From a virus (lineage: Duplodnaviria > Caudoviricetes), in IMG/VR virus record IMGVR_UViG_3300032330_001742, positions 52,065-116,064 of that record: a stretch of 64,000 nt of DNA; one strand, 5' to 3'. A model generated the notes under the pieces. That model was not told the origin of the DNA. It searched no databases and saw nothing but the letters and a program-made list of their open reading frames with translations. Of the stretch, positions 17,607-49,634 are shown piece after piece (position 1 is the stretch's first letter; each line of letters opens with the position of its first letter). Both the position numbers and the translations under genes were made by a program.

Positions 17607-17607
17607 T

Positions 17608-28127: not shown

Positions 28128-28308
28128 TTGAGTTCAATGCATCATATAGCAACTCATTAGCATATACCAATTGAGGCATAGCCTGTTCCAACCATGGCTC
28201 AATATCAACATTTTGCTCTGATGCCATCTTCTTATTCCACTCAACGACTGTTTGAGTCATTAAATTAACTACTTCTTGTTTATCCAATTTAATCTCCATT
28301 ATTGACAC
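28111..28308 (-). CDS. Hypothetical protein
   Basis: 65-aa ORF in operon. Confidence 0.55.
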   Translation of the reverse strand: MSIMEIKLDKQEVVNLMTQTVVEWNKKMASEQNVDIEPWLEQAMPQLVYANELLYDALNSNGLIK

Positions 28309-28982
28309 GGACCATTCATCATGGCTGCTTTTGCTCTTGAATTCATTAATAGTTTAGCATACTTTTCTGAGACATCGTTTGAATGGTCATCTCCATCAAG
28401 CCAATGCTCTTCTTCTAAAGGATTATCATCTAGGCTGCTATGTGTTTGACATAAGATAATATCGTAGTAATCTCCCTCTTGAAAATCATAGTCTGGTCTC
28501 CAATGGGCTTGGTGTGTACCGCTAAACCAAATACCCTTGTTTTTCTCCATAGTAAACTTTTCATCTTCTACATAAAAATCCCAATCAATGTTTGTATCTA
28601 GTTCTACAGTAAACATCAAAGCAACATGTGTTTCAGATCTATCTTGGTGTGGCATCAATGAGGGCATTTCACCGCTTTCAAGCGTATATCTTGCCCATAG
28701 TATGCCTATATGCCCTACAGGAGCATTAGCCTCTTTTTCGAATTTCGAACGAATTTTATTTTCGACTTCTTTGGATAATCCAGGTAGTGGACCTTGGCGA
28801 CGCTCCGAAAGAAAAACGACATTAAAACCATTGTTAGTATTTTTGCGGAAATGTTGCCATTTATCTCCCGAATCCTTAATTCCCATTTCCATGGTGTCGT
28901 TAATGGTCTTATAAATGGATGCGTATTCTTCTGTCGTAAAAAAATTTTTTTCTTCACGTGGGACGGTGGGCTCTATTATCAT
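28299..28982 (-). CDS. 2OG-Fe(II) oxygenase-like protein
   Basis: RY......PSL.PHQD...W...F.G..QAHWRP. Confidence 0.75.
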   Translation of the reverse strand: MIIEPTVPREEKNFFTTEEYASIYKTINDTMEMGIKDSGDKWQHFRKNTNNGFNVVFLSERRQGPLPGLSKEVENKIRSKFEKEANAPVGHIGILWARYTLESGEMPSLMPHQDRSETHVALMFTVELDTNIDWDFYVEDEKFTMEKNKGIWFSGTHQAHWRPDYDFQEGDYYDIILCQTHSSLDDNPLEEEHWLDGDDHSNDVSEKYAKLLMNSRAKAAMMNGPCQ

Positions 28983-29026
28983 AAAATCATTATACCACTA
29001 TGCTATAATTATAAAGAACAAAGGAG

Positions 29027-29305
29027 ATGCCAATGGCATTAGAAAAGATGAGTTTTGTAGAAACCGATTGGTATACAACTCAAAATGAAACAAGTCAAGC
29101 AAGAGACTTTATTTTTAAAGACTTTTGTGACTATATTATCGTAGTAAAGACATTTGCTGATAAATCAGACAATACCGTTCTACAGCGCACAGATGTAATT
29201 CACATCGACTCTAACCACGGTGGAGTTAATCACAAGAAGATCTCAGAACTTGATCCTCCGCTAATTGCTGCGTTGGATGCTGCGAACTTCCCTTATATCA
29301 AGTAA
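29027..29305 (+). CDS. Hypothetical protein
   Basis: Promoter TGCTATAAT and SD AAGGAG. Confidence 0.6.
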   Translation: MPMALEKMSFVETDWYTTQNETSQARDFIFKDFCDYIIVVKTFADKSDNTVLQRTDVIHIDSNHGGVNHKKISELDPPLIAALDAANFPYIK

Positions 29306-29921
29306 AAAATTTACTTACATAGAAGTCCGCTTTTGTTTGCATTGTTGCTCTATGAGCATCATCTAACATTAGCGGATTTTCTGTATCCTCATAAACTTGG
29401 CAGACAATGATGTCGTAATAGTCCGAATTGTCGAATTCTATATCTGGTCGCCAATGTATTTGGTGGCTTCCAGAAAATAAGACTGCTTGATTGTATTTCA
29501 AATCAAATTTATTTCCTTCTATATATAAGTCCCAAGGCTTAGTATGTTTTAACTGAATGCTTAGTGTGAATGAAGCCGATACCATACCAACATCATAGTG
29601 AGGCCTTAGAGAAGGCTTAGAACCCGATTCAAGGGTATATCTTGGCATATGGTTGCCGTCTTCTTTTACGTATATAGGAACCCTTTTTGCTATTTCATTT
29701 AAAATTTTTCTTCTAATATTGTATTCAAAAGGGTAAACACATGTTATGTACCCACAAGATGGATCTGTAAAAACATAATCACTTCCATCTCCATTTTTTT
29801 TACCAGGAGCAAGTTCAAACCTTGTTTTATAAATGCTTTCAATTTCTTCTTCGGTAAAAATATTATCTATTAGAATTGGTTTAAAATTAAAAAATGTATC
29901 TTTATTGTTCTGTATGGTCAT
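29298..29921 (-). CDS. 2OG-Fe(II) oxygenase-like protein
   Basis: PSLRPHYD...QAVLFSGSHQIHWRP. Confidence 0.75.
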   Translation of the reverse strand: MTIQNNKDTFFNFKPILIDNIFTEEEIESIYKTRFELAPGKKNGDGSDYVFTDPSCGYITCVYPFEYNIRRKILNEIAKRVPIYVKEDGNHMPRYTLESGSKPSLRPHYDVGMVSASFTLSIQLKHTKPWDLYIEGNKFDLKYNQAVLFSGSHQIHWRPDIEFDNSDYYDIIVCQVYEDTENPLMLDDAHRATMQTKADFYVSKFFT

Positions 29922-30573
29922 GCCATTGCCTCAAATCCATATCACGGTACATAGAATCTTTTTTGTCAAAATATTCTTGATCTATTGGCCATGCCGTAGT
30001 TCCTACAAAATCAAAATGCAAAACCATTATATCGTAAAAGTCTTCTTTGCTAAATTCTACTATTCTTGGTCTCCAGTGAGGGTATAGATTTGCAGAAAAG
30101 AATAAAGCCTGATTATCTTTTAAACTCCACCGATTTTTCTCTACACCTACATCCCATTCAACAGTAGATTTTAATTTTGATGTTAGCGACATTCTATAAT
30201 TTTCTCCAAATTTTGCCTCATCAAGATGTGGTGGCAATCCTGGAAAAAACCCAGACTCTCTAGAATATCTAGCAAAGTATCCACCTAAATTTTTTATTTC
30301 TTTTCCTAAAATATTAGATATTCTATTTCTTAGATCTTGCAAAAGTATATCGACTGTTGCATCATTACCAACATAGCCTTTGCCATCATGTTTGGGAAGA
30401 GGAAGCCTTTGCATACCATTTTGGTGAATAAAAAAGTATTTGTATTTATCACCTTCGGACTCTCCTAAAGTGGTTGTTTCTTCTACTATTGCATATATAT
30501 CTTTTAGATTTTGTTCAGAAAATAAATCATCATGAATTACTGGAGGAGTATTTAAAAGTTCCTTTGCATTCAT
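29902..30573 (-). CDS. 2OG-Fe(II) oxygenase-like protein
   Basis: LPPHLD...QALFFS...PHWRP; tandem paralogue. Confidence 0.75.
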   Translation of the reverse strand: MNAKELLNTPPVIHDDLFSEQNLKDIYAIVEETTTLGESEGDKYKYFFIHQNGMQRLPLPKHDGKGYVGNDATVDILLQDLRNRISNILGKEIKNLGGYFARYSRESGFFPGLPPHLDEAKFGENYRMSLTSKLKSTVEWDVGVEKNRWSLKDNQALFFSANLYPHWRPRIVEFSKEDFYDIMVLHFDFVGTTAWPIDQEYFDKKDSMYRDMDLRQWHDHTEQ

Positions 30574-30576
30574 TTT

Positions 30577-30777
30577 TTACCACTTTCCTATTGGGCATTT
30601 TGCTTGTTTCAGTGTAGATTTTAATTTCATAAAGCATCCACATTTTTTACATTTAATAAGTCTTTTATTAAACCATCCACAATCATTACAAATTGCTAAG
30701 CGAGATTCAATTAGTTCCTTGTCACTTCTTGGTTGACTTGGATCAAATAAATCGGTAAACTTAACATCTTCTGCCAT
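30577..30777 (-). CDS. Small six-Cys protein
   Basis: R..IC..C...C..CGCFM..K......CP.GKW. Confidence 0.75.
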   Translation of the reverse strand: MAEDVKFTDLFDPSQPRSDKELIESRLAICNDCGWFNKRLIKCKKCGCFMKLKSTLKQAKCPIGKW

Positions 30778-30824
30778 ATTTATATAATACCATATTTTAA
30801 ATAATCTAGTTATAATATATCATT

Positions 30825-31079
30825 ATGACACCTGCAGACTGGGCTGGACTTATTGTTAGCGTAACTACTATAGTTGCATCTATTGCATATGGTATTAAGT
30901 GGTTAACAAAACACTATTTGCAAGAATTAAAACCCAATGGTGGTTCAAGTTTAAAAGACTCAGTTAGACGCCTAGAGGAAAAAATATTAGAAGCAGATGA
31001 GCAGCGTTGCCGCATGGATCAAAAATTAGATAAGATGTATGATGTTTTGCTAGAGCATATTGCTTCAAATAATAAATAA
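30825..31079 (+). CDS. Membrane protein with PNGGSS motif (actinophage-type, possibly lysis-associated)
   Basis: N-terminal TM, ELKPNGGSSLKD, coiled coil. Confidence 0.65.
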   Translation: MTPADWAGLIVSVTTIVASIAYGIKWLTKHYLQELKPNGGSSLKDSVRRLEEKILEADEQRCRMDQKLDKMYDVLLEHIASNNK

Positions 31080-31080
31080 A

Positions 31081-31767
31081 TCAATACTGTAGATGGTTGT
31101 TTGGCAATTCATCTACGTGATATTGATGATCTCTATTAAAGAAATATTGAGTAGAATATCTAGATCCACTTTTTACTGGTTCAATGTTATGGTATATGTG
31201 TGAAGGGAAAACAACCATATCTCCAGCAACTGGCTTATACACATATGGTGGCTTTAATACATAAGGATTATTTAGATCTTGTTCTGACATCTCATTTTCT
31301 TGTTCTAGAGTTGGATCAATAAAATTCAACTCCCCACCTTCAAAATCATCATTCCAATAGAATACACACGACATAGTGATAGCAGTCATTCCGCCTTCTA
31401 GTCCAAAGTGTTTGGTATATGTTCCAGTTGGAATATCTCTATGTGTTCCCAACCACATGCCCTCAATTCTTTTATCGACAGTTAGCATTTCTTGTCCATA
31501 TGTTTCTAGATAGTTTGGTTTTTCTAATTTGATGTCATCTTTTTCTAGTTCAAAGTCTCTAGTGATTTTTGGAAGTATTGTGTTATGAGCCATCAAAACT
31601 GCTTTTGCTACTGGCACAGGCAAAAACTCTCTTAGTTGCAAAACTGGAGTATCAGTACAAACACTTTGTGTTAAAATTTCATTTGGGTAAAGTTCAAACA
31701 TTTCCATAGATCTTTTTATGATAGACTGATCTATTGTGTTCTTATAAATTCTAACTTGGTTTTTCAT
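31081..31767 (-). CDS. 2OG-Fe(II) oxygenase (P4H-like)
   Basis: HRD...YWNDDFEGGE...H.IEPV.SG.RY. Confidence 0.85.
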   Translation of the reverse strand: MKNQVRIYKNTIDQSIIKRSMEMFELYPNEILTQSVCTDTPVLQLREFLPVPVAKAVLMAHNTILPKITRDFELEKDDIKLEKPNYLETYGQEMLTVDKRIEGMWLGTHRDIPTGTYTKHFGLEGGMTAITMSCVFYWNDDFEGGELNFIDPTLEQENEMSEQDLNNPYVLKPPYVYKPVAGDMVVFPSHIYHNIEPVKSGSRYSTQYFFNRDHQYHVDELPNNHLQY

Positions 31768-32047: not shown

Positions 32048-32425
32048 ATGACTATGTGTGGACCTGAAATTTTTGGTGCTAACCCAGTAAAAATTAAATG
32101 GAATGTTGTTAGAGGAGACTCTGCGTCCTTGAGAGTAGAGTTTTTAGAAAATGATGAACAGACTCGTTTTTCTACATCTGGATGGACATATAAAGCAAGT
32201 GCGTATGATCCAAAAGGTGACACAATTGATGAATTAGAAGTTGTCTCACATAATGGATATATTGATATAAAAGCAACTCCAGAAATTACTCAGTATTGGG
32301 GTACTGGATATACAACACAGGTAGCAGAACTAACCTTTGATCTTGAAGTAACAATTGACGAAGTAACTTGGACACCAGTAATTGGAACTGTTCTTGTTTA
32401 TGGTGATATTTCGGGGTCACTATAA
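32048..32425 (+). CDS. Putative virion structural protein (baseplate/adaptor-like)
   Basis: W.VVRGD motif shared with 40909 and (YYKGD) 33258. Confidence 0.6.
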   Translation: MTMCGPEIFGANPVKIKWNVVRGDSASLRVEFLENDEQTRFSTSGWTYKASAYDPKGDTIDELEVVSHNGYIDIKATPEITQYWGTGYTTQVAELTFDLEVTIDEVTWTPVIGTVLVYGDISGSL

Positions 32426-32520
32426 TGGCAGTAGTAAGAGTTACAACACCTAGGCCAGAATTACCACCAGTAATAAAAATTGAAAACAAAACTTATAAAA
32501 TAAATAAGTAGAGGAGAATT

Positions 32521-33240
32521 ATGGTTTCTAAAAGTGTAGATTTTCCTAAAAGTGCATATGCTTCTCAGGTTCTTCAACAACAAACGCCATCTACAGATGT
32601 AGCAACATACATACCAGTACCTGGGCCAGAAGGACCAAGAGGTTTACAAGGGCCAAAGGGGGAGCCAGGAAAAGATGGTGCTCCAGGAAAAGATGGAGAA
32701 CGTGGACCAAAAGGGGATAAAGGGTTTAAAGGTGATCCAGGACAAAGTTCATTATCTTCTTCTGGACAACAAGCAGGTTGGGCTTCTTATACAAATTTAA
32801 ATTCACCAGAAGCAAGGCTTGGTATTTCTAAAGGTGATGATGGATGGGTATCACTTGAACTTGCAGAAAAGGGATCAGTTAAAAATGAAACATTTATGCC
32901 AAGTTCTTCATTTGGAACAAGCCTATACAATTTTAACTCAAAATCTTTAACATTTAAACCATTAGAGATTGGCTCGATTGTAAATGTTACATATAATTTT
33001 GAATTAACCACATATACAAATAATACAGAAGTTTGGTTTAGAACAAATTTCCCACTAGCAAAATCTTCAGCATCTAAACTTGTTGGGTCTTTTAAGTATC
33101 AATACGTTTATGATATTTCTGTAGATCAACAGTTCTTTATTGAAAATCAAGGTATTTGGGGGTCTGGAGGAGTACCACAAATAAGAACAGATTTTGATGC
33201 AATAGCAATTTTAAAAAGCATATATGTTTCTGTTGTCTGA
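32521..33240 (+). CDS. Collagen-like Gly-X-Y repeat tail protein
   Basis: About 14 Gly-X-Y triplets then a beta-rich domain. Confidence 0.8.
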   Translation: MVSKSVDFPKSAYASQVLQQQTPSTDVATYIPVPGPEGPRGLQGPKGEPGKDGAPGKDGERGPKGDKGFKGDPGQSSLSSSGQQAGWASYTNLNSPEARLGISKGDDGWVSLELAEKGSVKNETFMPSSSFGTSLYNFNSKSLTFKPLEIGSIVNVTYNFELTTYTNNTEVWFRTNFPLAKSSASKLVGSFKYQYVYDISVDQQFFIENQGIWGSGGVPQIRTDFDAIAILKSIYVSVV

Positions 33241-33257
33241 CGTGGTATAATAATTCT

Positions 33258-33692
33258 ATGGCATTTCCAGCAACTTATAACTTTTCTTACTATAAAGGTG
33301 ATACCTTAGAGTTTAACATCTACCCTAAAAAGGCAGACGGAACAGTTTTTGATTTATCTCCATTTTTGCCATCCTATGATAATGATAATAATCAATCAAC
33401 GCCAAATATCGTTTATGATACCTCAAAGTTTGTTTTTTCTTTATCTAGGGGCTCTTCTGGCACTTCCTCTCAAGTAACTTGTTTTTCAAAAATATCTAAT
33501 GATGCAACACACATACTGTGTGCAATTAGGCCAGCAGACTCAGTTTCAATGGTTGCAGGAACACAGTATGTTTATGATGTTCAAGTTTCTACAAATACCT
33601 CTTCTAATGGCTATCCAATTGTCCATACACTTTTGACAGGGGTAATAACAGTAACTGATCAAGTGGCAACAGGATATGGAACTCCAAACTAA
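33258..33692 (+). CDS. Putative virion structural protein
   Basis: YYKGDT...YVYDVQV...LLTG.ITV. Confidence 0.6.
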   Translation: MAFPATYNFSYYKGDTLEFNIYPKKADGTVFDLSPFLPSYDNDNNQSTPNIVYDTSKFVFSLSRGSSGTSSQVTCFSKISNDATHILCAIRPADSVSMVAGTQYVYDVQVSTNTSSNGYPIVHTLLTGVITVTDQVATGYGTPN

Positions 33693-34282
33693 TGGTAGAT
33701 GTAATACTTTCCAATGAAGATTTAAGTATTTTGGGTGGTCCAGAAACAGTAAATGTTGAAGTTGATTTTGGTGCAACTGGATCACGAGGAAGCAGAATAT
33801 TTGTTAATTATGGCCAACCAGTAGTAGGGATTGATGGTCTTACATCACTAGCCCCAGACTGCAATCTATTTGACCTCTATATAAATATTCAAAGTACAGA
33901 TGATGAATATCAGTTTGTTTATCAATATCAAAATGTTCTTGGCACATTAACTTGGGTTAAACTTTTTAAACTAGTATCAACTATTCATAGCAAAAATTAT
34001 TCAGATACTTCTTTTGTATCTGGAACATGGACAAAAAATATTCCAGTAATAGATGTTTTGCCTTTAGATTTTGTTGGAACAGCAGAATCTGCCAACTTTA
34101 ATATTCAATATACTATACTAGGTGAAAATCCAATTGCTTCATCTTTATCTATAGCAGAAATATCAACATCTAGCGGAGCACTGGTATTGCCTTTAACTAT
34201 CAAAGCAAAAGAGTTTGTTGATGGGGCCTGGTCTAGTTTGTCTGGTACAAAAACAGTACAACTCTTTATTACTATGGTATAA
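33692..34282 (+). CDS. Putative virion structural protein
   Basis: G..G.RGS motif, structural context. Confidence 0.55.
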   Translation: MVDVILSNEDLSILGGPETVNVEVDFGATGSRGSRIFVNYGQPVVGIDGLTSLAPDCNLFDLYINIQSTDDEYQFVYQYQNVLGTLTWVKLFKLVSTIHSKNYSDTSFVSGTWTKNIPVIDVLPLDFVGTAESANFNIQYTILGENPIASSLSIAEISTSSGALVLPLTIKAKEFVDGAWSSLSGTKTVQLFITMV

Positions 34283-34290
34283 TCTTATGT

Positions 34291-34716
34291 ATGGCTACAG
34301 AAAATATAGGCTCTTTATACCCAACTAAAATCCCTGGATTTGATGAACCAGCCGATATTCAGGCAGCCCTTAAACTTTATCATTATGGAACAACAGAAAC
34401 AGTTTCTACAACAAATGACATTGTTGCTAATTCAGTAACTGGACATTTTAAGGCATTGGATGAAAGAGTTTCTGATCTTGAGTCTGATGGAATTGGATCT
34501 TCTATTTTATCTTCACAGCCAACAGGCGTACACGATGGTTATATTTGGATTGATTCTACAAGTTCTGGAACAAGTCAGGTTCAATATGCACAAGCATCTT
34601 ATCAGACCTCAGAACCAACAACTCCAACAATGGGAGCACTTTGGGTTGATTCAGATAGTACACCATTAACACTTTATGTTTGGTCTGGATCTGCATGGAG
34701 AGAGATTGGTGCATAA
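34291..34716 (+). CDS. Putative tail fibre-associated protein
   Basis: ADIQAALK; P...G.LWVD...LYVW.G..W fibre motif. Confidence 0.6.
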   Translation: MATENIGSLYPTKIPGFDEPADIQAALKLYHYGTTETVSTTNDIVANSVTGHFKALDERVSDLESDGIGSSILSSQPTGVHDGYIWIDSTSSGTSQVQYAQASYQTSEPTTPTMGALWVDSDSTPLTLYVWSGSAWREIGA

Positions 34717-34841
34717 TGGCTAAAGAAAAAACAACAGAAGAACAACTTCGTGAAAGCGGTATAGCAAAATTAATTTCTGCTACACAAATCACAGAAGCAG
34801 AGTTAAGAGCACTGGGGTTGACATCAAATGGCAGCAATTGA
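34716..34841 (+). CDS. Small tail-associated protein
   Basis: TAATG coupling; SGIAKL...TEAELRALG. Confidence 0.45.
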   Translation: MAKEKTTEEQLRESGIAKLISATQITEAELRALGLTSNGSN

Positions 34842-35457
34842 TAATAGCGGAAAAGTAGCATACATTTATAGTCAAGCAGATAATAAATGGTATTCAATTG
34901 CTGGAACAGTTAATCCAAATGCATCTTATACTTGGACAGCAAACCAACAGTTTTCAGCACCAGTAAATTTTGATATGGTAATTAATGCAAAAGCAGGCGT
35001 AAATAATTTTGCTAATCCAACAGCAAGAGATGCAGCACTTACATCTCCTACAAATGGTTTGGTTTGTTTTGTTAGACAAACAAACGCTGGATCAGTAATA
35101 AATCAAATTCAATATTACCACAATGGTGAGTGGAGATGGATAGGAGATTCAGCAGATCTCTCTTTAAAGACATCTAGTTTTACAATTACAAAAGATGATG
35201 CTGGGAAAACATTAAATGTTAGTTCTTCTTCAGACGTTGTAGTAACAATACCAGCAAATAGCACAACACCTTTTATTAATGGACAAAAAGTTGAAATTGT
35301 AAGAACTGGAACAGGTAATGTTTCCATTGAGGGCGCAGTTGGAGTTACAATAAATAGTAAGAATTCAAATAAGAAAATTTCTTCACAATATGTTGGTTGT
35401 GTATTAGTTAAAATAGATACAAATACCTGGTTGCTAATTGGCGATCTGACGGCGTAG
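34828..35457 (+). CDS. Tail fibre-like protein
   Basis: C-terminal domain (VTIP.N...Q.GTG.V...W.L.GDL) shared with 45120-46805. Confidence 0.7.
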   Translation: MAAIDNSGKVAYIYSQADNKWYSIAGTVNPNASYTWTANQQFSAPVNFDMVINAKAGVNNFANPTARDAALTSPTNGLVCFVRQTNAGSVINQIQYYHNGEWRWIGDSADLSLKTSSFTITKDDAGKTLNVSSSSDVVVTIPANSTTPFINGQKVEIVRTGTGNVSIEGAVGVTINSKNSNKKISSQYVGCVLVKIDTNTWLLIGDLTA

Positions 35458-35464
35458 GTAGAAG

Positions 35465-36976
35465 ATGCTAAATTTATTTCAATGGGCATCAAAAGGAATG
35501 GTAGCAGTACCAAATCTATCGACATTGACAATTACTCAAGCACAAACACTACTTACTTCTTTAGGTCTTGGTTTTATAAACTCTGGTTCTTCATCAACAT
35601 ATAATATTAATTTAGATACAACTATTGCAACACAATCAATTTCTGCAAACACCCTTGTTGATTATGGAACAAATATTAGTTTTACTTATTATGCATACGT
35701 AACTCCAGTTCCTACCCCAACTCCTACCCCTACACCTACACCAACGCCTACACCAACGCCTACACCAACGCCTACACCAACGCCTACACCAACCCCAACC
35801 CCTACACCAACTCCAACACCTACACCAAATGGTGTTGAATATTACATAGGAACATCTGCTTGTGCTGGAACAAGTGGGCTTTATTACAGTAGCCCATCAG
35901 TTTCTGGCCCATATTATTCCTCATCAATTCCATCAGATACAAGTTCTTATTCTAATGCAGTTGTAACAAAAACAGTTTATAGATCAACATCTGCAGCAGC
36001 ATTAGAGGCAGCAAAAAATGTTGCATGTGAAAATGTAACGCCTACTCCTACCCCAACTCCTACACCTACACCTACCCCAACACCTACCCCAACACCTACC
36101 CCAACCCCTACCCCAACCCCTACACCTTCACTTCCAACATGTCCAGGAACTCAAACAAAAGCAACATCTTATACATGTAATGAATTAGGTTTGGTATATC
36201 TTGGAGGACCATCGGACTATCAGGTTGGTGTTGGATATCAATGTTGTGGTGGCGCAATTCCTACCCCAACTCCAACGCCTACCCCTACACCTACACCAAC
36301 GCCTACACCAACTCCTACACCAACACCTACACCAACTCCTACACCAACACCTACCCCAACACCTACCCCAACACCTACACCATATTCATTTACAACAACA
36401 GTATATGGAATTAGATGTATTTCTGGTGACACATTTATTAGAGTTTTGCCAGGGGATGGAACTATAAATGTAGATGAAAATAATGGTGTTATTACACTAA
36501 AGGACAAAGATGGTAACACCGTTGCAAAACAGGCTAAAGATATAGTTATTGGTGATGAAATCATGACCACATCTTATTCTGAAATTGATCAAAACTCTCC
36601 AGATTACGAAATGTTCAATTGGAGTTCTGATTCTTTGACCTTTATAGAAAATGCTAAAACAACAATTGTTGATATTCAAGAAGATAATAAGAATCAGATT
36701 GCATACTTTAATAATGATCAATCAGCAAAATTTACACTAGAGCATCCAATTTTAGTTAATAGAAAAATTAATAACATTGATGATTGGAAATTCTTGATGG
36801 TTGCAGAAATTGAAGTAGGAGATATAATTGTTAAGTACGATTCAGAACTGGGAGTTTATAATAATGTGGTCATTGAATCAATTGACTTAATTCCATATGC
36901 AGAAACAGTTTATACATTTAGTGCTGAGCCAGTAGATTTAATTATTGCTGGAGATATCATTACTCACAATAAGTAG
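35465..36976 (+). CDS. PASTA-like + Pro-Thr repeat + C-terminal Hint domain protein
   Basis: VPNL...A...L...GL N-terminus; three (PT)n tracts; Hint from C318 (CISGDT) with FT.EHPIL and terminal HN. Confidence 0.85.
35701..36382 (+). repeat. Three coding (Pro-Thr)n tracts
   Basis: CCN-ACN hexamer repeats at about 35701-35828, 36035-36127, 36260-36382 with synonymous variation. Confidence 0.9.
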
Positions 36977-36981
36977 CGCAA

Positions 36982-37554
36982 ATGATTAAAGATCCTTATT
37001 TGATTCAAAATGTTTTATCTGACCAAGATTTATCAACACTATCTGACTACGCTTTCAAACTTTGGGAAACTGATAAAAGTACATACAATGAAGGTTTTGG
37101 TAGGCACCAATGGGCAATATGGGGAAATGATTTACCAGAAAAACTTCTTCCATTAAAATACATTCATACTAAATTGACAAAATTAGCAAAAAAAGAATTT
37201 GATTCAGAAACGCTTAAGCCTTCTTGGTGCCTGCTAAGTATTTATGAGGGTAAAGAGGCAAAACTTTGGAAGCATAAAGATGATAATGCTTGTACATATC
37301 ATATAAATTTAACTTTAATTTCTAAAACCCCTTGGGATTTTTATGTAGAAGGAGAAAAATTTACACCAGTCCCAAATGAAGCAGTTATTTCTTATGGAAA
37401 TGATCAAGAACACTGGAGAGAACAATTTCCAGATCCAGAAAATAATTTAGTTTGCAATGCATTCTTTTTTTATTGTGAGCCAGAGCATTGGTATTTTACA
37501 AAAGGACCTTCTTATTTATATACAGACATAAGAAAAGAAAAAACAAATGGATAA
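36982..37554 (+). CDS. 2OG-Fe(II) oxygenase
   Basis: L.KHKDDNACTY...W...G..QEHWR. Confidence 0.8.
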   Translation: MIKDPYLIQNVLSDQDLSTLSDYAFKLWETDKSTYNEGFGRHQWAIWGNDLPEKLLPLKYIHTKLTKLAKKEFDSETLKPSWCLLSIYEGKEAKLWKHKDDNACTYHINLTLISKTPWDFYVEGEKFTPVPNEAVISYGNDQEHWREQFPDPENNLVCNAFFFYCEPEHWYFTKGPSYLYTDIRKEKTNG

Positions 37555-38464
37555 AATTTTTATAAGTATTGCAGCCTATAGGGATCCAGATTTAGTAAAT
37601 ACAGTAAAAAGTTTTTATGACAATGCATATAATAGAGATAGTTTATTTTTTTCTTTAGTCTCTCATGAAGAAGAAGATAATATTTTAGATTTTAGTTTTT
37701 TACCAAAAAACCAATATTCTTATCAAAAAATTGATTATCGTTTAGCACAAGGAGTTTGTTCTGGAAGATATTTGGCAAACTCTTTGTTATCATCAGATTA
37801 TAAATATTTTATGCAAACAGATTCACATTCTAGAGTTATTAAAAACTGGGACCTAGAAGTAATCAAATGTTATATAAAATGTAAAAATAAATGGGGAAAT
37901 GATTTTTTATTTACTAAATACCCACACGGATTTAATTTTGATTGGAGCCTAGGTGACTATATAGCAGTTTTACCAGAAAATAATAACACTTTACACAAGG
38001 TTGTACCAGTATGGGATGATTTTGAAAGTTTATACTTACTTGAATGGAAGGAATTAGAAGATACAGAGTTTGGAGATTTAGTTTATGGCTTTGCTGCAAA
38101 CTGTGTATTTGGAAGTGCAGTTGCTATGTTAAAAATACCATATGATCCTTTTTTGTATTTTCATGGAGAAGAAATTACCTTGGGAGTTAGGGCTTATATA
38201 AACGATGTTCCCCTTGTATCGCCACCAATTAATTTTTTATACACAAATTATGATAGAGAAAATGGCAAAAGAAATTTTCACTGGGAAGATGATATAAGTT
38301 GGTCAATAAGGGATAAATATTCAAGAATTAGAATTAACAATATTTTTAAAAAGAAAAATTTGGGAATTTTTGGTTTAAATGATTTAAATAAATATGAAGA
38401 ACTTCAGAAAAATAGTGGAATAGATTTTGAAAATAAAACTCATATTAAAAATATTTATAGGTAA
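37547..38464 (+). CDS. GlcNAc-transferase, Gnt1/GT60-like
   Basis: IFISIAAYRDPDL, QTDSHSR...WD, PYDP.LYF.GEEI.L..R. Confidence 0.8.
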   Translation: MDKIFISIAAYRDPDLVNTVKSFYDNAYNRDSLFFSLVSHEEEDNILDFSFLPKNQYSYQKIDYRLAQGVCSGRYLANSLLSSDYKYFMQTDSHSRVIKNWDLEVIKCYIKCKNKWGNDFLFTKYPHGFNFDWSLGDYIAVLPENNNTLHKVVPVWDDFESLYLLEWKELEDTEFGDLVYGFAANCVFGSAVAMLKIPYDPFLYFHGEEITLGVRAYINDVPLVSPPINFLYTNYDRENGKRNFHWEDDISWSIRDKYSRIRINNIFKKKNLGIFGLNDLNKYEELQKNSGIDFENKTHIKNIYR

Positions 38465-38493
38465 ATATGCTATACTTTTTAAAAGGGGTAAGA

Positions 38494-38697
38494 ATGAACA
38501 AAAAAACAGTTAAGCCTTGGGATTTGCTAAATCCTAATAAGCCAAGATCTAATGATGAGATTGCAAAAGAAAGATATGACATTTGTAATTGGTGCCCAGA
38601 GTTTATTTCACTAACAAAACAATGTGCAAAATGTGGCTGTTTTATGCACCTTAAGGTAAAACTAGAAGAAGCAACATGTCCGTTAGGCAAATGGTAA
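38494..38697 (+). CDS. Small six-Cys protein, paralogue of 30577-30777
   Basis: RY.IC..C...C..CGCFM..K......CPLGKW. Confidence 0.75.
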   Translation: MNKKTVKPWDLLNPNKPRSNDEIAKERYDICNWCPEFISLTKQCAKCGCFMHLKVKLEEATCPLGKW

Positions 38698-38780
38698 TGA
38701 AATTATTTAATAGAATTATATTCAAGTATAAAGAATATAAAAAATATAAAAAAATAAAAAAGGGAACTTGGATATATTAA
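38697..38780 (+). CDS. Small Lys-rich peptide ending in WIY
   Basis: TAATG-coupled on both sides. Confidence 0.5.
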   Translation: MKLFNRIIFKYKEYKKYKKIKKGTWIY

Positions 38781-39727
38781 TGTTTTTTGATATATTTAAA
38801 CCTGGTATCGTACCTCATAATAGACCAAACAGTAATTATAGGTCTAGTGTTCTTGCTACTCATGCAGAGATAGAAAGATCAGAATACAACTATGACTGGA
38901 ATTCTGACGGTATAAGATCTATAGAGTTTTCAGAAAAACCACCAATCGTAACGCTTGGTTGCTCTATTACTCTTGGTCAAGGATTACCTATAGACTTAAT
39001 TTGGCCAGAAATGCTTGCTAAAAAAATCAATTTAAAAGTTGGAAATATATCATATAGTGGTGGATCTATTACTCAAATTATTTCAGGATTTTTTGGAATG
39101 ATTGCTCAATATAAATACAACCCAGAGTATGTAATTTGTAATTTTCCACCTTTTGATAGGTTTTATTTTATAAATGGCAAAGGTGATCAACTTAAAGACT
39201 ACAGGGCTGGTGTAAAAAAAAGAAAAACAAAGGATTCTGCGCCATGGGACTATGGTGCAACTATTCCATATGAATGGGCATATTACAGTAATTTGAATGC
39301 TTTGCAAATGCTTGAATCCTTCTGTGACTCAAATAATATTAAACTTATCTGGAGTACATGGTCAAATGCATTGTCTGAAGATCAAGAAGATTTTCTTATG
39401 GATAATTTTCAACACTATGTTAAAGACCCAGTAAGAAAAGAGTTTGCCCCACATTTTGAGTTCTGGGTTGATTCAAAAACGGTAGATGCGTTAGATGTTT
39501 TTTATAAAATGAAAAACTGGGATAAAGTTCAATGCCATACCAAAGAATTTATGATGCACAAAGAAATTTTTAATTATGCTTATGACTATCACAAAATAGG
39601 AGAAGCCCCAGATAAAGAGAAAGTTATTACTCGAACTCCTCATCCAGGGCTTCACAAGCATATTCATTACGTTGATTTTTATTATAACGAAATGTTAAAA
39701 AATGGTTTTAAAGAGGGAACTTCTTAA
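38780..39727 (+). CDS. SGNH/GDSL hydrolase-like protein
   Basis: WNSDGIRS.EF, TLGCSITLGQG, C-terminal HPG..H. Confidence 0.65.
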   Translation: MFFDIFKPGIVPHNRPNSNYRSSVLATHAEIERSEYNYDWNSDGIRSIEFSEKPPIVTLGCSITLGQGLPIDLIWPEMLAKKINLKVGNISYSGGSITQIISGFFGMIAQYKYNPEYVICNFPPFDRFYFINGKGDQLKDYRAGVKKRKTKDSAPWDYGATIPYEWAYYSNLNALQMLESFCDSNNIKLIWSTWSNALSEDQEDFLMDNFQHYVKDPVRKEFAPHFEFWVDSKTVDALDVFYKMKNWDKVQCHTKEFMMHKEIFNYAYDYHKIGEAPDKEKVITRTPHPGLHKHIHYVDFYYNEMLKNGFKEGTS

Positions 39728-40908: not shown

Positions 40909-41307
40909 ATGGCAACAACTCGTGGAGCAGCATCGTCTTATGATATTGGTAATAAACCACCTACAGTTATTTGGACAGTAGTTCGTGGTGATACTTCTGG
41001 TTTTAGAGTATATGCAACTGATGATGCAAAGCAACCATTAAATATTCCTGATTGGGATATATCCATGAAGTTTAAAAGACCAGTATTAAACCCTGGAGTT
41101 ATTTCAGATAATGCAACACTGGTTTTCACACTAACCCCAGCACCAGATGATGATGATCAAATTGGCGAGTTTACTGTATGGTTGACTGCAGCCCAATCTG
41201 CTCAACTTGAAACAGGAGACATTTTCGATATTCAGTTGTCTGACCCAACAAGAGTTTGGACTGTTGCTCAGGGCAGCATGAAGATTCTTGAAGATGTAAC
41301 AGATTAA
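40909..41307 (+). CDS. Putative virion structural protein
   Basis: WTVVRGDT; paralogue of 32048. Confidence 0.6.
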   Translation: MATTRGAASSYDIGNKPPTVIWTVVRGDTSGFRVYATDDAKQPLNIPDWDISMKFKRPVLNPGVISDNATLVFTLTPAPDDDDQIGEFTVWLTAAQSAQLETGDIFDIQLSDPTRVWTVAQGSMKILEDVTD

Positions 41308-46838: not shown

Positions 46839-48227
46839 ATGGCAGTAAATAAGAAAATTGGTGGTCACGCACAAGGTGCTAATGACTTTTTGGCACCTTA
46901 TGCACCAACTATTGGAACAGCAACCAACGTTCCATCTGGAAGAGCATTTAATAATGGACGGGCTGATGTAACATTTACACCTGACGCTATAAATGCAGCA
47001 ACATCCTTTACTGTTACATCTTCTCCTGGAGGTTATACAGGAACTGGATCAGCATCTCCTATTACTGTTACTGGTCTTCAATCTAATACATCTTATACAT
47101 TTACTGTAACTGGAGCAAATGCTGCAGGAACATCTGCTGCATCTGCTGCATCTAATAGCATAACTGCTACTACAGTTCCAGATACAGTTGCTACTCCTTC
47201 AGTATCTACAGCAGCATCTGGAGATGCGACGGTCCCTCAGGGAACTGCTAATACTGCAACAGATACAGTTTCATGGTCAGCACCAGCAAATGGTGGATCA
47301 GCAATCACAAACTACCACTGGACTTCGTCTGATGGAAAGTCTGGAGATACAGGTTCTACATCTATCACTGTTGCTCAAGAATCAGGAACAGGACAAACAT
47401 ATTCTGTTTATGCAACCAATACTAATGGAAATGGTGGAACTGGTACATCTGGTTCAATTACATCAGCATTCTCATTTACACCATTCTCAGTATTTGGATT
47501 CTCTCCGTTCTCAGTATTTGGATTCTCACCGTTTGGTGTATTCGGATTCTCACCATTTGGCTTCTCACCATTTGGAGTGTTTGGCTTCTCACCATTTGGA
47601 GTGTTTGGCTTCTCACCATTTGGATTCTCTCCATACGGATTCTCAACAACAGTATACGGAATTCGTTGTATTGATGGAGAAACATTTATTAGAGTTAAGT
47701 CAGGACAAGGAACAGAATCAGTTGATTCCGAAACTGGCAAGGTAACACTTAAAAACTCCGCAGGAGAAGTTGTTGCTAAAAAGGCTAAGGATATTGTTGT
47801 AGGAGATACAGTTCTGTCAGCAAGCATTACAGAAATTGATCCAGCATCACCAGACTACGAAGTATTTACATGGAAGTCAGATTCTTTAACATTTGTTGAA
47901 GATACTGAGACAACAATTGTAGATATTGAAGAACAGTCAAAGATTCAGGCTATTTATTTTAATGGAGATGAGTCCTCACAGTTTACTCTTGAGCACCCTA
48001 TCTTGGTTAAGAAAACAGTTGATGGCGTTTCAGAATATGCATTCTCAATGGTTGCAGAAATTGAAATTGGAAACTCAATTCTAAAGTATAATCCATCTAC
48101 TGACTCATACGATGAAACTGTTATTAACAGCATTGATATTAGTTCTGGAGAAAAGACAGTTTATACATTCAGCGCAGAGCCACACGATCTTATCATCGCT
48201 GGCGATATTATTACTCACAATAAGTAA
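46839..48227 (+). CDS. FN3 domains + FGFSP repeats + C-terminal Hint domain protein
   Basis: VTGL...TSYTFTV...N..G.S and WSAP.NGGS.IT.Y; F(G/S)FSP units; Hint from C277 (CIDGET) ending HN. Confidence 0.85.
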   Translation: MAVNKKIGGHAQGANDFLAPYAPTIGTATNVPSGRAFNNGRADVTFTPDAINAATSFTVTSSPGGYTGTGSASPITVTGLQSNTSYTFTVTGANAAGTSAASAASNSITATTVPDTVATPSVSTAASGDATVPQGTANTATDTVSWSAPANGGSAITNYHWTSSDGKSGDTGSTSITVAQESGTGQTYSVYATNTNGNGGTGTSGSITSAFSFTPFSVFGFSPFSVFGFSPFGVFGFSPFGFSPFGVFGFSPFGVFGFSPFGFSPYGFSTTVYGIRCIDGETFIRVKSGQGTESVDSETGKVTLKNSAGEVVAKKAKDIVVGDTVLSASITEIDPASPDYEVFTWKSDSLTFVEDTETTIVDIEEQSKIQAIYFNGDESSQFTLEHPILVKKTVDGVSEYAFSMVAEIEIGNSILKYNPSTDSYDETVINSIDISSGEKTVYTFSAEPHDLIIAGDIITHNK

Positions 48228-48232
48228 TAAAA

Positions 48233-48904
48233 ATGCGTGGAGATAAACATCCAAAAGCATCTGAATTTTGGCTAAGTACATATGCCATGTCGTTTGCTGA
48301 AATTGTAAACAAAAGCAACTGTAATAGAAACTTTGTTGAATATCAGTATGTGATTGGAAATCCAGATCTTTCTAATTCAATTATAAAACCAGTAAATGAC
48401 TATGCCTATAATCTTTATAAGGCTCCAGAACTAATTAAATATGAAGATGGTTATGTGTTTTTAAGACAAAAAACACATGCTGAAATATGGGTTAAAAGAG
48501 ATTATAAACAAGGTTTTTATTTTTTAGATCGCCCACACATTAGGCAGTTTTATACATCTGACACCATATTTAAAGCAGAAAATACATTCATGATGCCATA
48601 TAGATTTTATGTTCCTTGGTTTATTGATAATGGATCAGAGTTTGAAGTATTACAGGTAAATGATGAGTATTCTCCATTTGTTATAAAAGAAAACTTATAT
48701 GATCCAATTAATACCAACTCAACAATAATTGAGCCTGCTTTTGTTCATTTTTTATTTAAAAAAACTGGGGAGCACATGCTAAATCCAAGTCATGGTAAAA
48801 TTAGTATAGGAACTCCTATGTTTGATATAAAGATAAAGATGGATAAAAGAGAGTTTGTCCAACTAAATGATTTTTATAAAAAGTATAAGTTTTCTAAATT
48901 TTAA
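48233..48904 (+). CDS. Hypothetical protein
   Basis: 223-aa ORF; I..GTPMF motif shared with next two genes. Confidence 0.6.
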   Translation: MRGDKHPKASEFWLSTYAMSFAEIVNKSNCNRNFVEYQYVIGNPDLSNSIIKPVNDYAYNLYKAPELIKYEDGYVFLRQKTHAEIWVKRDYKQGFYFLDRPHIRQFYTSDTIFKAENTFMMPYRFYVPWFIDNGSEFEVLQVNDEYSPFVIKENLYDPINTNSTIIEPAFVHFLFKKTGEHMLNPSHGKISIGTPMFDIKIKMDKREFVQLNDFYKKYKFSKF

Positions 48905-48914
48905 AGGAGAAAAA

Positions 48915-49634
48915 GTGCCAATAATTGAATTTCATCCATGGAGTGATGATACAGAAGGTCTTATAGATAAGCCAACACCAACACATAGAAACGTACCAGA
49001 ATGGTACCGTAAACAACCTGCATATGTCAATAAAGATGAATTTTTGAAGAAGGGTGTTTCTGGATCTACAATTAAGAAGTGCATGCCAGTGTTTGATGCA
49101 ATGACTGCTGGATATACTTTATATTGCCCTGTTGATATATATGTTGACGCAACAAATCCTGCAAAACTTGAATATAATATTCCAGTAGCAGTTGCAGGCC
49201 TAAAGAAAGAACTATTTACTACACATTCTCCAGAACAAATTACTCACTATCCTATGTCACCAAATACACACAAAGATGTATTGAGAATTAATCCTATGTG
49301 GTCAATAAAAACTTCAGATGGCTACAGCACATTATTTACAAAGCCAATGCATCAAGAGCACTATCCTTTTGAAATTGTTCCTGGAGTAATAGATACAGAC
49401 TCTTACATGAGTGAAGGATTTTTATCTTTTAAAATTGATAATACTTTTAAGGGTATTATTGAAAAAGGAACTCCAATTGCACAGTTGATTCCATTTAAAA
49501 GAGAGTCTTGGGAAAGCAAGCATATCGATTACTCAGACTCTAAAACCTTTCAAAGAAAACAAAGAATGCTTATTCGTAGTAAATTCTTTAATTATTATAA
49601 AAAGAACTTTTGGCATAAAAAGGTATGGAATTGA
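48915..49634 (+). CDS. Beta-barrel protein (DUF6065-like)
   Basis: P.WYR...TIKKCMP..DAMTAGY...PG.IDTD...KGTP..Q.IPFKRE.W; GTG after AAGGAG. Confidence 0.65.
   Translation: MPIIEFHPWSDDTEGLIDKPTPTHRNVPEWYRKQPAYVNKDEFLKKGVSGSTIKKCMPVFDAMTAGYTLYCPVDIYVDATNPAKLEYNIPVAVAGLKKELFTTHSPEQITHYPMSPNTHKDVLRINPMWSIKTSDGYSTLFTKPMHQEHYPFEIVPGVIDTDSYMSEGFLSFKIDNTFKGIIEKGTPIAQLIPFKRESWESKHIDYSDSKTFQRKQRMLIRSKFFNYYKKNFWHKKVWN

What the first reader, a model, noticed from the sequence alone, without database searches (positions are those of the whole stretch)
35465..38464. Candidate phage hydroxyproline-glycosylation cassette: Pro-Thr repeat Hint protein + 2OG oxygenase + Gnt1-like GlcNAc transferase
Seen: a tail-module protein with about 55 Pro-Thr dipeptides in three tracts and a C-terminal Hint domain, followed directly by a 2OG-Fe(II) oxygenase and a glycosyltransferase with IFISIAAYRD/QxDSH/GEE motifs. 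Known: in Dictyostelium a prolyl 4-hydroxylase (PhyA) and GT60 enzyme (Gnt1) build Hyp-O-GlcNAc on Skp1, and related GT60 enzymes initiate mucin-type Thr O-GlcNAc. Inference: the phage makes a mucin/extensin-like glycosylated virion appendage from substrate and enzymes encoded together.
Basis: partly seen in the sequence, partly recalled or inferred. Interest (0 to 1): 0.88.

Follow-up and report, generated by a model that had tools for sequence, protein, structure and literature searches.

The report
Phage fibre-tailoring cassette: hydroxylase plus GT60
An uncultured 116-kb phage encodes a tail appendage protein with long Pro-Thr linkers, directly followed by an iron/2-oxoglutarate oxygenase, a GT60-type protein sugar transferase and a small six-cysteine helper; comparison with related phages suggests these enzymes decorate the linkers, which has not been described for a phage and has not been tested at the bench.

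Summary
Observation confirmed. ORF 35465-36976 has 54 PT dipeptides in three tracts, a PASTA-like N-terminus and a C-terminal Hint domain of the BIL kind. ORF 36982-37554 has no Pfam hit but folds as a 2OG-Fe(II) oxygenase. ORF 37547-38464 is a clear PF11397 member, the Pfam family that (from memory) corresponds to CAZy GT60. A fourth member was missed: DUF6171 (38467-38697), which other phages fuse in frame to the transferase or to the oxygenase.

Interpretation partly supported. In loci found through an unrelated anchor gene, 32 of 33 fibres with Pro-containing linkers are followed by DUF6171 plus an oxygenase; 0 of 9 fibres without such linkers are. Poly-Thr phages keep DUF6171 and the transferase but have no oxygenase on contigs up to 92 kb. 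The transferase is optional (8 of 33) and occurs only with Thr-rich tracts. The closest relative has the same cassette without it.

This fits two separable modifications better than an obligate PhyA-then-Gnt1 relay: Pro hydroxylation, and HexNAc most likely on Thr. Few lineages are independent, so the associations are not statistically proven, and no chemistry is shown. Earlier notes of this scan report GT60 genes beside Thr/Pro fibres in other phage genomes. I found no publication on it.

The parts
34828..35457 (+). Tail-fibre domain protein (209 aa). In many relatives it is fused N-terminally to the Pro/Thr-rich protein.
   Evidence: PHROG tail-fibre, minor-tail and virion-structural families. 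Fused forms occur in L008, L016, L027, L053 and others.
35465..36976 (+). PT-Hint appendage protein (503 aa) and proposed substrate. Order: PASTA-like N-terminus (residues 13-74), (PT)n tract, Cys-containing segment, (PT)n tract, Cys-containing segment, (PT)n tract, Hint domain.
   Evidence: PASTA scores 24.5 bits against a cut-off of 23.2. Orthologue in the closest relative, L088 4493-5929.
35711..35824 (+). PT tract 1 (residues 83-120)
36038..36127 (+). PT tract 2 (residues 192-221)
36260..36379 (+). PT tract 3 (residues 266-305)
36416..36976 (+). C-terminal Hint domain of the BIL kind. It runs from Cys318 (motif R|CISGDT) through TLEHP to THN-K-stop. There is no +1 nucleophile.
   Evidence: Invariant C, TxxH and HNK. 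Model pLDDT 88. Foldseek top hits 2lwy (BIL), 6y75 (BIL2), mini-inteins and 1at0. A 60%-identical paralogue ends ORF 46839-48227.
36982..37554 (+). 2OG-Fe(II) oxygenase of an uncharacterised, mostly viral family (190 aa). H98, D100 and H144 are invariant.
   Evidence: Alignment, model pLDDT 95, fold matches. 224 cluster representatives at E<=0.001.
37547..38464 (+). PF11397 glycosyltransferase (305 aa), GT60-like, with no N-terminal extension. It overlaps the oxygenase gene by 8 nt.
   Evidence: Pfam E 2e-33. Invariant D92-x-H94 and G207-E-E. No solved relative by sequence.
38467..38697 (+). DUF6171 (76 aa) with six invariant cysteines, starting 2 nt after the transferase stop. Proposed shared accessory module of the enzymes.
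   Evidence: Pfam and PHROG hits. Alignment. In-frame fusions to the transferase in L029 and L036 and to the oxygenase family in P0021 and P0037.
38768..39727 (+). Unknown 319-aa protein, last gene of the + strand run. Possible SGNH/GDSL-type hydrolase (weak lead only). Membership of the cassette is uncertain.
   Evidence: No Pfam, PHROG or NCBIfam hit. Weak GDSL leads. Kept with the cassette in L088 and L139.
31081..31767 (-). PF13640 (P4H-type) 2OG-Fe(II) oxygenase, divergent from the fibre operon. In relatives the same family sits in the slot next to the transferase.
   Evidence: Pfam E 2.6e-9. Slot enzymes of relatives hit PF13640 at E 6e-18. Same family by jackhmmer.
30577..30777 (-). Second DUF6171 copy, directly upstream of an oxygenase paralogue
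   Evidence: Pfam E 3.6e-9; alignment
28299..30573 (-). Three paralogues of the 190-aa oxygenase family: 28299-28982, 29298-29921 and 29902-30573
   Evidence: hmmsearch with the family profile gives E 1e-11, 5e-13 and 1e-6; pairwise BLASTP agrees.

Best explanation
Positions 35465-38697 hold a late-operon cassette that makes a tail appendage protein and probably tailors it in the host cytoplasm.

The protein starts with a PASTA-like domain, a type known for binding peptidoglycan. Three (PT)15-20 linkers then separate small Cys-containing segments, and a BIL-type Hint domain closes the chain.

Proposed steps, all inferred:
1. 2OG/Fe(II) oxygenases hydroxylate prolines in the linkers. Candidates are the 190-aa enzyme in the cassette and the PF13640 enzyme upstream.
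2. The soluble GT60-like transferase adds a HexNAc, probably GlcNAc from UDP-GlcNAc, to the linkers. Thr is the more likely acceptor; Hyp is possible.
3. DUF6171, a six-cysteine and probably zinc-binding module, works with both enzymes as an adaptor.
4. The Hint domain makes a thioester at Arg317-Cys318. It then cuts itself off, or passes the fibre's C-terminus to another nucleophile.

Shown here: the domain identities, the gene order, the gene fusions, and the co-occurrence of enzymes with linker type.

Not shown: every chemical step, the acceptor residue, the sugar, and whether the protein is in the virion.
For: Identities:
- PF11397 at E 2e-33.
- 2OG oxygenase fold, Z 15-17, with invariant HxD...H.
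- Hint fold with invariant catalytic residues.

Operon: intergenic distances are 7, 5, -8 and 2 nt. The only + strand terminator-like site in the run lies inside the PT-Hint ORF (at 35855) and is probably a chance match.

Synteny in GT-anchored loci: the order is tail-fibre domain, hypervariable P/T-rich Cys-domain protein, DUF6171, optional oxygenase, transferase, lysozyme-like (SLT) gene on the minus strand.

Anchor-independent sample (42 loci with the slot visible, found through ORF 40909-41307):
- 32 of 33 Pro-linker fibres have DUF6171 plus an oxygenase in the slot.
- None of 8 aromatic-repeat or no-repeat fibres, nor the one poly-Thr fibre, has an oxygenase there.
- L090 is counted as a Pro-linker.

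Whole-contig check: six contigs of the poly-Thr-type clades (24-92 kb; in one, G003, the fibre gene itself is off the contig) contain no PF13640 and no 190-aa-family oxygenase. The Pro-rich sister clade has 1-4 and 1-2 of them.

Transferase: it occurs only where tract residues are at least 32% Thr, or poly-Thr. It is absent from all tracts with 3-31% Thr.

Fusions:
- DUF6171 to the transferase (L029, L036).
- DUF6171 to the oxygenase (P0021, P0037).
- 190-aa family to PF13640.

Independent contexts:
- L085 carries a (PPVT)9 protein, then DUF6171, then an oxygenase fusion.
- A separate lineage carries TP-linker giant proteins, then one or two PF11397 genes, an epimerase, a methyltransferase and, in different loci, a GT2 or GT25 gene.

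Family knowledge: GT60 contains both a Hyp-specific enzyme and mucin-type Thr enzymes (PMC6939170, PMC8724618).
Against: No biochemical evidence exists for any step.

On the transferase tree only 3-5 contrasts are independent. Their direction is never opposite, but the sign test cannot reach significance. The large raw counts are inflated by relatedness.

The 190-aa oxygenase is not detectably related by sequence to prolyl hydroxylases. By fold it ties with halogenases, epimerases and AlkB.

The transferase is dispensable. The closest relative, L088, has the same fibre, oxygenase and DUF6171 but no transferase.

One Pro-linker locus (L157) has no recognised oxygenase in the slot. One 88%-complete PT phage (G011) has none on its contig.

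Shared ancestry could explain part of the gene order within the lineage. PT linkers are also common as unmodified spacers.
Confidence: 0.55

Rival explanations
1. A strict relay as in the protist Skp1 pathway. The oxygenase makes 4-Hyp in the PT tracts, and the GT60 enzymes need that Hyp as acceptor, giving Hyp-O-GlcNAc.
For: In the window the oxygenase and transferase genes overlap by 8 nt. Gnt1 of GT60 is Hyp-specific (PMC6939170). PF13640 (P4H-type) enzymes sit next to the transferase in many relatives. Some oxygenase-bearing relatives have (AP)n or (PV)n tracts without Thr or Ser, where only Hyp could carry an O-glycan. Those loci, however, carry other sugar genes and no GT60.
Against: Poly-Thr phages keep the transferase and DUF6171 but have no oxygenase on contigs up to 92 kb. 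G011 has a PT fibre and the transferase without an oxygenase. The transferase follows Thr content, not Pro content. Most Pro-linker loci with oxygenases lack GT60.
Confidence: 0.15
2. The PT tracts are plain flexible spacers, and the enzymes act on something else: the collagen-like fibre protein (32521-33240), other virion proteins, or host proteins or cell-wall material. On this view the adjacency is inherited gene order.
For: A collagen-like gene with Pro and Lys in its Gly-X-Y repeats lies in the same operon. From general knowledge, viral P4H and collagen-modifying enzymes are known in giant viruses, and 2OG oxygenases are common phage auxiliary genes. Few contrasts are independent. The transferase is dispensable in the closest relative.
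Against: The collagen-like gene is also present in poly-Thr and aromatic-repeat phages that lack oxygenases. Enzyme content tracks the repeat type of the adjacent slot protein. The same pairing recurs in contexts with no other shared genes. The transferase has no membrane or signal segment; the ORF begins directly with the conserved IFISIAAYRD block.
Confidence: 0.2
3. DNA hypermodification: a TET/JBP-like oxygenase plus a glycosyltransferase decorate phage DNA bases.
For: Pairs of a phage 2OG oxygenase and a glycosyltransferase are known to modify DNA (general knowledge; Pyle et al. 2024 as cited in PMC12619734). Foldseek rank 1 for the oxygenase is AlkB, tied with PHD2.
Against: No TET/JBP entry appears among the listed fold matches. 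PF11397 is a polypeptide transferase family. The genes lie in the tail-fibre operon, not among replication genes. Their presence follows the fibre repeat type.
Confidence: 0.03

Closest known systems
Skp1 hydroxyproline glycosylation pathway of Dictyostelium and Toxoplasma (PhyA prolyl 4-hydroxylase, then Gnt1 of CAZy GT60)
   Same: A cytoplasmic 2OG oxygenase is encoded with a soluble enzyme of the Gnt1 Pfam family (PF11397) (PMC6939170).
   Different: There is no Skp1. The proposed substrate is a repetitive phage fibre protein. The transferase and the oxygenase occur without each other in relatives. The cassette's oxygenase is not a recognisable PhyA/PHD member by sequence. An extra DUF6171 module is present.
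Mucin-type O-GlcNAc initiation by GT60 polypeptide alpha-GlcNAc transferases (Trypanosoma cruzi, Dictyostelium)
   Same: The same Pfam family as these GT60 enzymes, paired with Thr/Pro-rich repetitive acceptors. The phage transferase tracks the Thr content of the tracts (PMC8724618).
   Different: Those enzymes are Golgi membrane proteins of eukaryotes. This one is a 305-aa soluble phage enzyme that would act in a bacterial cytoplasm. Its donor and acceptor are untested.
Mycobacteriophage virion glycosylation (Freeman et al. 2023, PMC10527164, as cited in PMC12619734)
   Same: Phage-encoded glycosyltransferases that decorate the phage's own structural proteins.
   Different: There the glycans sit on the C-termini of capsid and tail-tube subunits. 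No hydroxylation, no GT60, no repeat linkers and no Hint domain are involved (from the citation and my own knowledge; I did not read the paper here).
Plant hydroxyproline-rich glycoproteins (extensins, arabinogalactan proteins) and chlorovirus PBCV-1 prolyl 4-hydroxylase
   Same: Dipeptide modules such as TP, AP and SP combined with a P4H-type 2OG oxygenase. The PBCV-1 enzyme (5c5t) is among the fold matches.
   Different: The plant Hyp glycosyltransferases belong to other families (GT95, GT31, GT77; my knowledge). No glycosylation partner is known for the chlorovirus enzyme. Here the setting is a bacteriophage tail fibre.
Bacterial intein-like (BIL) domains and the Hedgehog HINT domain
   Same: The fold and the catalytic Cys1, TxxH and HN residues. 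The domain sits at the end of a variable surface protein and lacks a C-extein nucleophile.
   Different: It terminates a phage fibre protein. The +1 residue is an invariant Lys followed by the stop codon. Its reaction (cleavage or transfer) is unknown.

Membership tests
PF11397, the Pfam family of Gnt1 (CAZy GT60) | Match to the family profile above the curated cut-off over most of its length | tested here: met
   116.6 bits against a cut-off of 21, E 2.2e-33; profile positions 97-311 and 2-41.
PF11397, the Pfam family of Gnt1 (CAZy GT60) | Metal-binding DxH/DxD motif of a GT-A enzyme, conserved | tested here: met
   D92-S-H94 is invariant in 24 homologues down to 39% identity, as is G207-E208-E209. 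That DxH is the GT27/GT60 motif comes from my own knowledge. The GT-A fold itself was not modelled.
PF11397, the Pfam family of Gnt1 (CAZy GT60) | UDP-GlcNAc donor, retaining alpha transfer to a polypeptide hydroxyl (Thr or Hyp) | not testable with these tools
   Needs an enzyme assay. No solved relative exists by sequence.
PF11397, the Pfam family of Gnt1 (CAZy GT60) | Placement relative to characterised members (Gnt1 against the pp-alphaGlcNAc transferases) | not tested
2OG-Fe(II) oxygenase superfamily (ORF 36982-37554) | Double-stranded beta-helix fold | tested here: met
   Model pLDDT 95. Z 15-17, rmsd 2.1-3.3 over 157-175 residues to 6n1f, SnoN, HalB, PHD2 and P4H.
2OG-Fe(II) oxygenase superfamily (ORF 36982-37554) | HxD/E...H iron-binding triad | tested here: met
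   H98, D100 and H144 are invariant in 45 sequences. The only hhalign segment aligns HKDD with the HIDD of the PF13640 enzymes. Their 3D proximity was not inspected.
2OG-Fe(II) oxygenase superfamily (ORF 36982-37554) | Basic residue that binds the 2OG C5 carboxylate | tested here: inconclusive
   R146 and R41 are invariant, but no Arg or Lys lies at the usual +9 to +17 from the distal His.
Prolyl 4-hydroxylase (PF13640 / P4Hc), asked of ORF 36982-37554 | Sequence membership | tested here: not met
   No Pfam or NCBIfam hit. hhalign against the PF13640 slot enzymes gives 0.1% probability.
Prolyl 4-hydroxylase (PF13640 / P4Hc), asked of ORF 36982-37554 | Fold closer to PHD/P4H than to other 2OG oxygenases | tested here: inconclusive
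   PHD2, Dictyostelium PhyA (6t8m), vCPH and bacterial P4H score Z about 15, tied with halogenases, SnoN and 6n1f.
Prolyl 4-hydroxylase (PF13640 / P4Hc), asked of ORF 31081-31767 and of the relatives' slot enzymes | Sequence membership | tested here: met
   38.3 bits against a cut-off of 27. The relatives' enzymes score 66 bits.
Hint superfamily, BIL-like autoprocessing domain | Hint fold with Cys1, TxxH and terminal His-Asn | tested here: met
Splicing intein | Cys, Ser or Thr at +1 and a C-extein to ligate | tested here: not met
   HN is followed by an invariant Lys and then the stop codon.
Skp1-type sequential Hyp-O-GlcNAc pathway | The transferase depends on the hydroxylase, so the two genes should travel together | tested here: not met
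   Transferase without any oxygenase in the poly-Thr phages and in G011. Oxygenases without the transferase in 24 Pro-linker loci.
PASTA domain (N-terminus of the PT-Hint protein) | Profile match above the cut-off | tested here: met
   24.5 bits against 23.2, which is marginal. PF03793 is also precomputed on ten homologues.

The most novel reading that the evidence does not exclude
Freshwater phages build extensin- or mucin-like glycoprotein fibres. P4H-type and novel 2OG oxygenases make hydroxyproline in (PT)n, (AP)n and (VTPA)n linkers. GT60 enzymes, or other sugar modules that swap into the same slot, glycosylate Thr and Hyp. DUF6171 is a new zinc-ribbon adaptor that brings these enzymes to their substrate. 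A terminal Hint domain uses its thioester to attach the finished glycosylated stalk covalently to the virion or to the cell wall. This would be the first hydroxyproline glycoprotein system in a bacterial virus.
Probability: 0.2. Interest if true: 0.88.

Novelty: new variant of a known kind. Interest (0 to 1): 0.74.

Why it matters
2OG-Fe(II) oxygenases are among the most common unexplained genes in aquatic phages. Here two oxygenase families follow Pro-containing fibre linkers from genome to genome, which gives them a concrete substrate to test.

If confirmed, phage host-recognition appendages would carry eukaryote-style modifications (hydroxyproline and mucin-type HexNAc). These could affect stiffness, protease resistance, adhesion to mucus or cell walls, and recognition by host defences.

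The cassette also offers three tools:
- a soluble bacterial-cytoplasm GT60 enzyme;
- a compact new oxygenase family;
- a self-cleaving Hint module with its natural substrate encoded beside it.

DUF6171 gains a first functional context.

Tried and rejected
Searches that found nothing:
- blastn of the cassette against GenBank phages: no match. tblastn with the transferase: only four jumbo Xanthomonas and Stenotrophomonas phages at 24-27% identity.
- Sequence search of the PDB with the transferase profile, and with the Hint domain alone: nothing useful.
- Local jackhmmer for the Hint domain in the first locus set: only the window's own copy.
- NCBIfam on the cassette proteins: nothing, or low-complexity noise such as TonB and internalin on the PT tracts.
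- Literature searches for phage with GT60, prolyl hydroxylase, tail fibre or Thr-rich: no relevant paper. One query failed on syntax.

Tests that were not significant:
- hhalign of the 190-aa oxygenase family against the PF13640 slot enzymes.
- The phylogenetically corrected association test on the transferase tree: only 3-5 independent pairs, so too few.

- Complex prediction for DUF6171 with the transferase. Nothing was folded, so binding rests on the gene fusions only.
- The look-up of sequencing runs.

Rejected or corrected:
- The PHROG label 'ferrochelatase' for the oxygenase family is a mis-annotation; the fold is a 2OG oxygenase.
- My first regular expression missed (VTPA)n and (VTP)n repeats and wrongly listed 11 loci as having no repeat protein. 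This was corrected. L090 was still missed there and is counted.
Full report
**Setting.** The window is the second half of a 116-kb IMG/VR virus record rated 100% complete. GC content is about 35% and there are eight tRNA genes. The capsid maturation protease is about 43% identical to those of large Streptomyces siphophages. Positions 32048-39727 form one tightly packed + strand run. It holds a collagen-like gene, several small fibre genes, a 209-aa gene that matches PHROG tail-fibre families, and then the genes in question. More fibre genes with Mtd_N domains follow. Intergenic distances inside the cassette are 7, 5, -8 and 2 nt. The only + strand terminator-like site in the run lies inside the PT-Hint ORF (at 35855) and is probably a chance match.

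**The repeat protein.** ORF 35465-36976 (503 aa) has 54 PT dipeptides in three tracts. The DNA of the tracts is an imperfect repeat built from mixed synonymous codons, while the peptide repeat is perfect. This argues for selection on the peptide. The N-terminus scores just above threshold for PASTA, and homologues carry the same annotation.

The last 186 residues are a Hint domain. In 27 homologues the invariant residues are Cys1 (R|CISGDT), T-x-x-H (TLEHP) and the terminal H-N-K. The model has pLDDT 88. Its best matches are a Clostridium BIL domain, Tetrahymena BIL2, mini-inteins and Hedgehog HINT. The terminal Asn is followed by an invariant Lys and the stop codon, so the domain cannot splice. 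It can cleave, or transfer the upstream chain.

A paralogue of this domain, 60% identical and with the same junction and the same ending, terminates a second fibre protein with FN3 and FGFSP-type repeats (46839-48227).

**The oxygenase.** ORF 36982-37554 has no Pfam or NCBIfam hit but belongs to a sizeable metagenomic family. H98, D100 and H144 are invariant. The model (pLDDT 95) is a 2OG-Fe(II) oxygenase by two aligners. Prolyl hydroxylases (PHD2, Dictyostelium PhyA, chlorovirus vCPH, Pseudomonas P4H) are among the matches. They tie with AlkB, SnoN, BesD/Hal enzymes and an uncharacterised Burkholderia protein. Profile-profile comparison with the PF13640 enzymes of related phages is not significant. 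The fold is therefore established and the substrate class is not.

The window carries three more paralogues of this family and one PF13640 (P4H-type) oxygenase on the minus strand, just upstream of the fibre operon, next to a second DUF6171 gene.

**The transferase.** From memory, PF11397 is the Pfam family of Gnt1 and corresponds to CAZy GT60. GT60 holds both the Hyp-specific Skp1 enzyme Gnt1 (PMC6939170) and the mucin-type Thr-directed polypeptide GlcNAc transferases of protists (PMC8724618). Family membership alone therefore does not say which residue is used. The ORF begins directly with the first conserved block, so the enzyme should be soluble.

**A fourth member.** DUF6171 (38467-38697) starts 2 nt after the transferase stop. 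It has six invariant cysteines and is almost wholly viral. It is fused in frame to the N-terminus of the transferase in two phages (L029, L036) and to the oxygenase family in others (P0021, P0037). It also precedes oxygenases of both families in unrelated contigs. I read it as an accessory module shared by the enzymes.

**Linkage, transferase-anchored sample.** Eighty loci were found through the transferase. They share the order: fibre domain, hypervariable P/T-rich protein with small Cys domains (470-1090 aa), DUF6171, optional oxygenase, transferase, lysozyme-like (SLT) gene on the minus strand.
- Wherever an oxygenase sits beside the transferase and the fibre is visible, the fibre is Pro-rich (26 of 26).
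- The 13 poly-Thr fibres have no oxygenase.

**Linkage, anchor-independent sample.** To avoid selecting on the transferase, I collected 79 new loci through the unrelated gene 40909-41307. In 42 of them the slot is visible.
- 33 have short-period Pro linkers of the types PT, VTPA, VTP, PA, PV or SPVG. Of these, 32 have DUF6171 plus one or two oxygenases in the slot, and 8 also have the transferase.
- 8 have aromatic repeats (PFFPPFF or YSFTP types) or no repeat protein. None has an oxygenase or the transferase in the slot.
- 1 is poly-Thr and has DUF6171 and the transferase only.

One locus, L090, was classed by hand.

The transferase occurs only where Thr makes up at least 32% of tract residues. 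Tracts with 3-31% Thr never have it. Some PT-rich loci lack it as well.

Where GT60 is absent, the slot often carries other sugar genes. These include an NAD-dependent epimerase/dehydratase, an NTP-transferase, a weak O-FucT-like protein and unknown proteins of 260-350 aa. The slot therefore looks like a variable tailoring island.

**Whole-contig checks.** Six contigs of the poly-Thr-type clades (24-92 kb; in one, G003, the fibre gene itself is off the contig) contain no PF13640 and no 190-aa-family oxygenase anywhere. The Pro-rich sister clade of one poly-Thr group has 1-4 and 1-2 of them elsewhere in the genome.

Counter-examples exist. An 88%-complete 27.7-kb phage has a PT fibre, DUF6171 and the transferase but no oxygenase. 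One Pro-linker locus has no recognised oxygenase in the slot.

The closest relative of the window phage is L088, with flanking genes about 90% identical. It has the orthologous PT-Hint protein, the oxygenase, DUF6171 and the 319-aa gene, but no transferase.

**Independent contexts.**
- A separate phage lineage shares none of the other tail-module genes I searched for, and its transferases are only about 30% identical. It places one or two PF11397 genes directly after giant TP-linker proteins. An epimerase, a methyltransferase and, in different loci, a GT2 or GT25 gene follow.
- Elsewhere, a (PPVT)9 protein is followed by DUF6171 and a fusion of the 190-aa family to PF13640.

**Statistics.** The raw tables are striking, but the phages are related. 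On a transferase tree only 3-5 independent contrasts exist. All informative ones point the same way, and that is too few for significance. I treat the associations as consistent, repeated and unproven.

**Reading.** The evidence fits two separable modifications of the fibre linkers. One is hydroxylation, which is tied to proline. The other is HexNAc addition, which is tied to threonine. DUF6171 serves both. DNA modification and host-directed roles are unlikely, given where the genes sit and how they co-vary with fibre type.

**Prior knowledge.** Phage virion glycosylation is published only for mycobacteriophage capsid and tail-tube termini (Freeman 2023, cited in PMC12619734). My literature searches found nothing on phage GT60, phage prolyl hydroxylation of fibres, or DUF6171. 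Earlier notes of this scan describe GT60 genes beside Thr/Pro fibres, and hydroxylases that travel with Pro linkers, in other phage genomes. I used them as leads only. My own data agree with them. New in this window are the DUF6171 fusions, the non-Pfam oxygenase family, the Hint terminus, and a close relative that naturally lacks the transferase.

Noticed in passing
window 46839-53139: A second cassette with the same logic. An FN3 protein with FGFSP-type aromatic repeats ends in a paralogous Hint domain (60% identical, same junction and same THNK end). Seven genes without Pfam hits follow: two DUF6065-like paralogues, three mutually 37-44% identical paralogues with HDH...HGYY...HPH motifs, and a divergent PF11397-like gene at 51620-52489 (E 2e-8 against my transferase profile).
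   Followed up: partly
window 28299-31767 (minus strand): A cluster of four oxygenase genes (three paralogues of the 190-aa family and one PF13640) with a second DUF6171 copy. It is divergent from the fibre operon. The same cluster type is seen in a freshwater contig (L083).
   Followed up: partly
window 38768-39727: A 319-aa gene with no family hit. Weak SGNH/GDSL hydrolase leads: GCSIT near residue 65, a language-model neighbour cluster with 15% Lipase_GDSL, and a PDB esterase at E 0.44. It stays with the cassette in L088 and L139, where it is duplicated.
   Followed up: partly
L125, L129, L162 (slot proteins); L030, L038, L095: Other slot proteins end in different Hint-like modules. One type has VCIDEDT ... 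VVHNS-KV, with Ser at +1. Another type lacks an obvious Cys1. C-terminal autoprocessing modules seem to be a general feature of these hypervariable fibre proteins.
   Followed up: no
L004, L053, L099, L102 and others: Odd aromatic-proline repeats (PPFFPPFFPFFP) and YSFTP or FSVFSFTPA repeats replace or accompany the PT linkers. Loci with only these repeats lack the slot oxygenases and GT60.
   Followed up: partly
L105 4295-7739; L089 5730-7807; L114 6313-7761: Where GT60 is absent, the slot holds a JmjC-like gene, a weak O-FucT-like gene (E 0.0026), GDP-mannose-dehydratase-like epimerases, an NTP-transferase and unknown 260-350-aa genes. This may be an alternative fibre-glycosylation module.
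   Followed up: partly
Fold search atlas result for ORF 36982-37554: A bacterial (Pseudomonadota) cluster with the same oxygenase fold (TM 0.79) carries a SEC-C zinc motif (PF02810) in 94% of members. This parallels the Cys-rich DUF6171 that accompanies the phage enzymes.
   Followed up: no
window 1419-19695: Eight tRNA genes (Ile-TAT, Gln, Arg x2, Lys, Glu, Gly, Asp) in the left part of the window.
   Followed up: no
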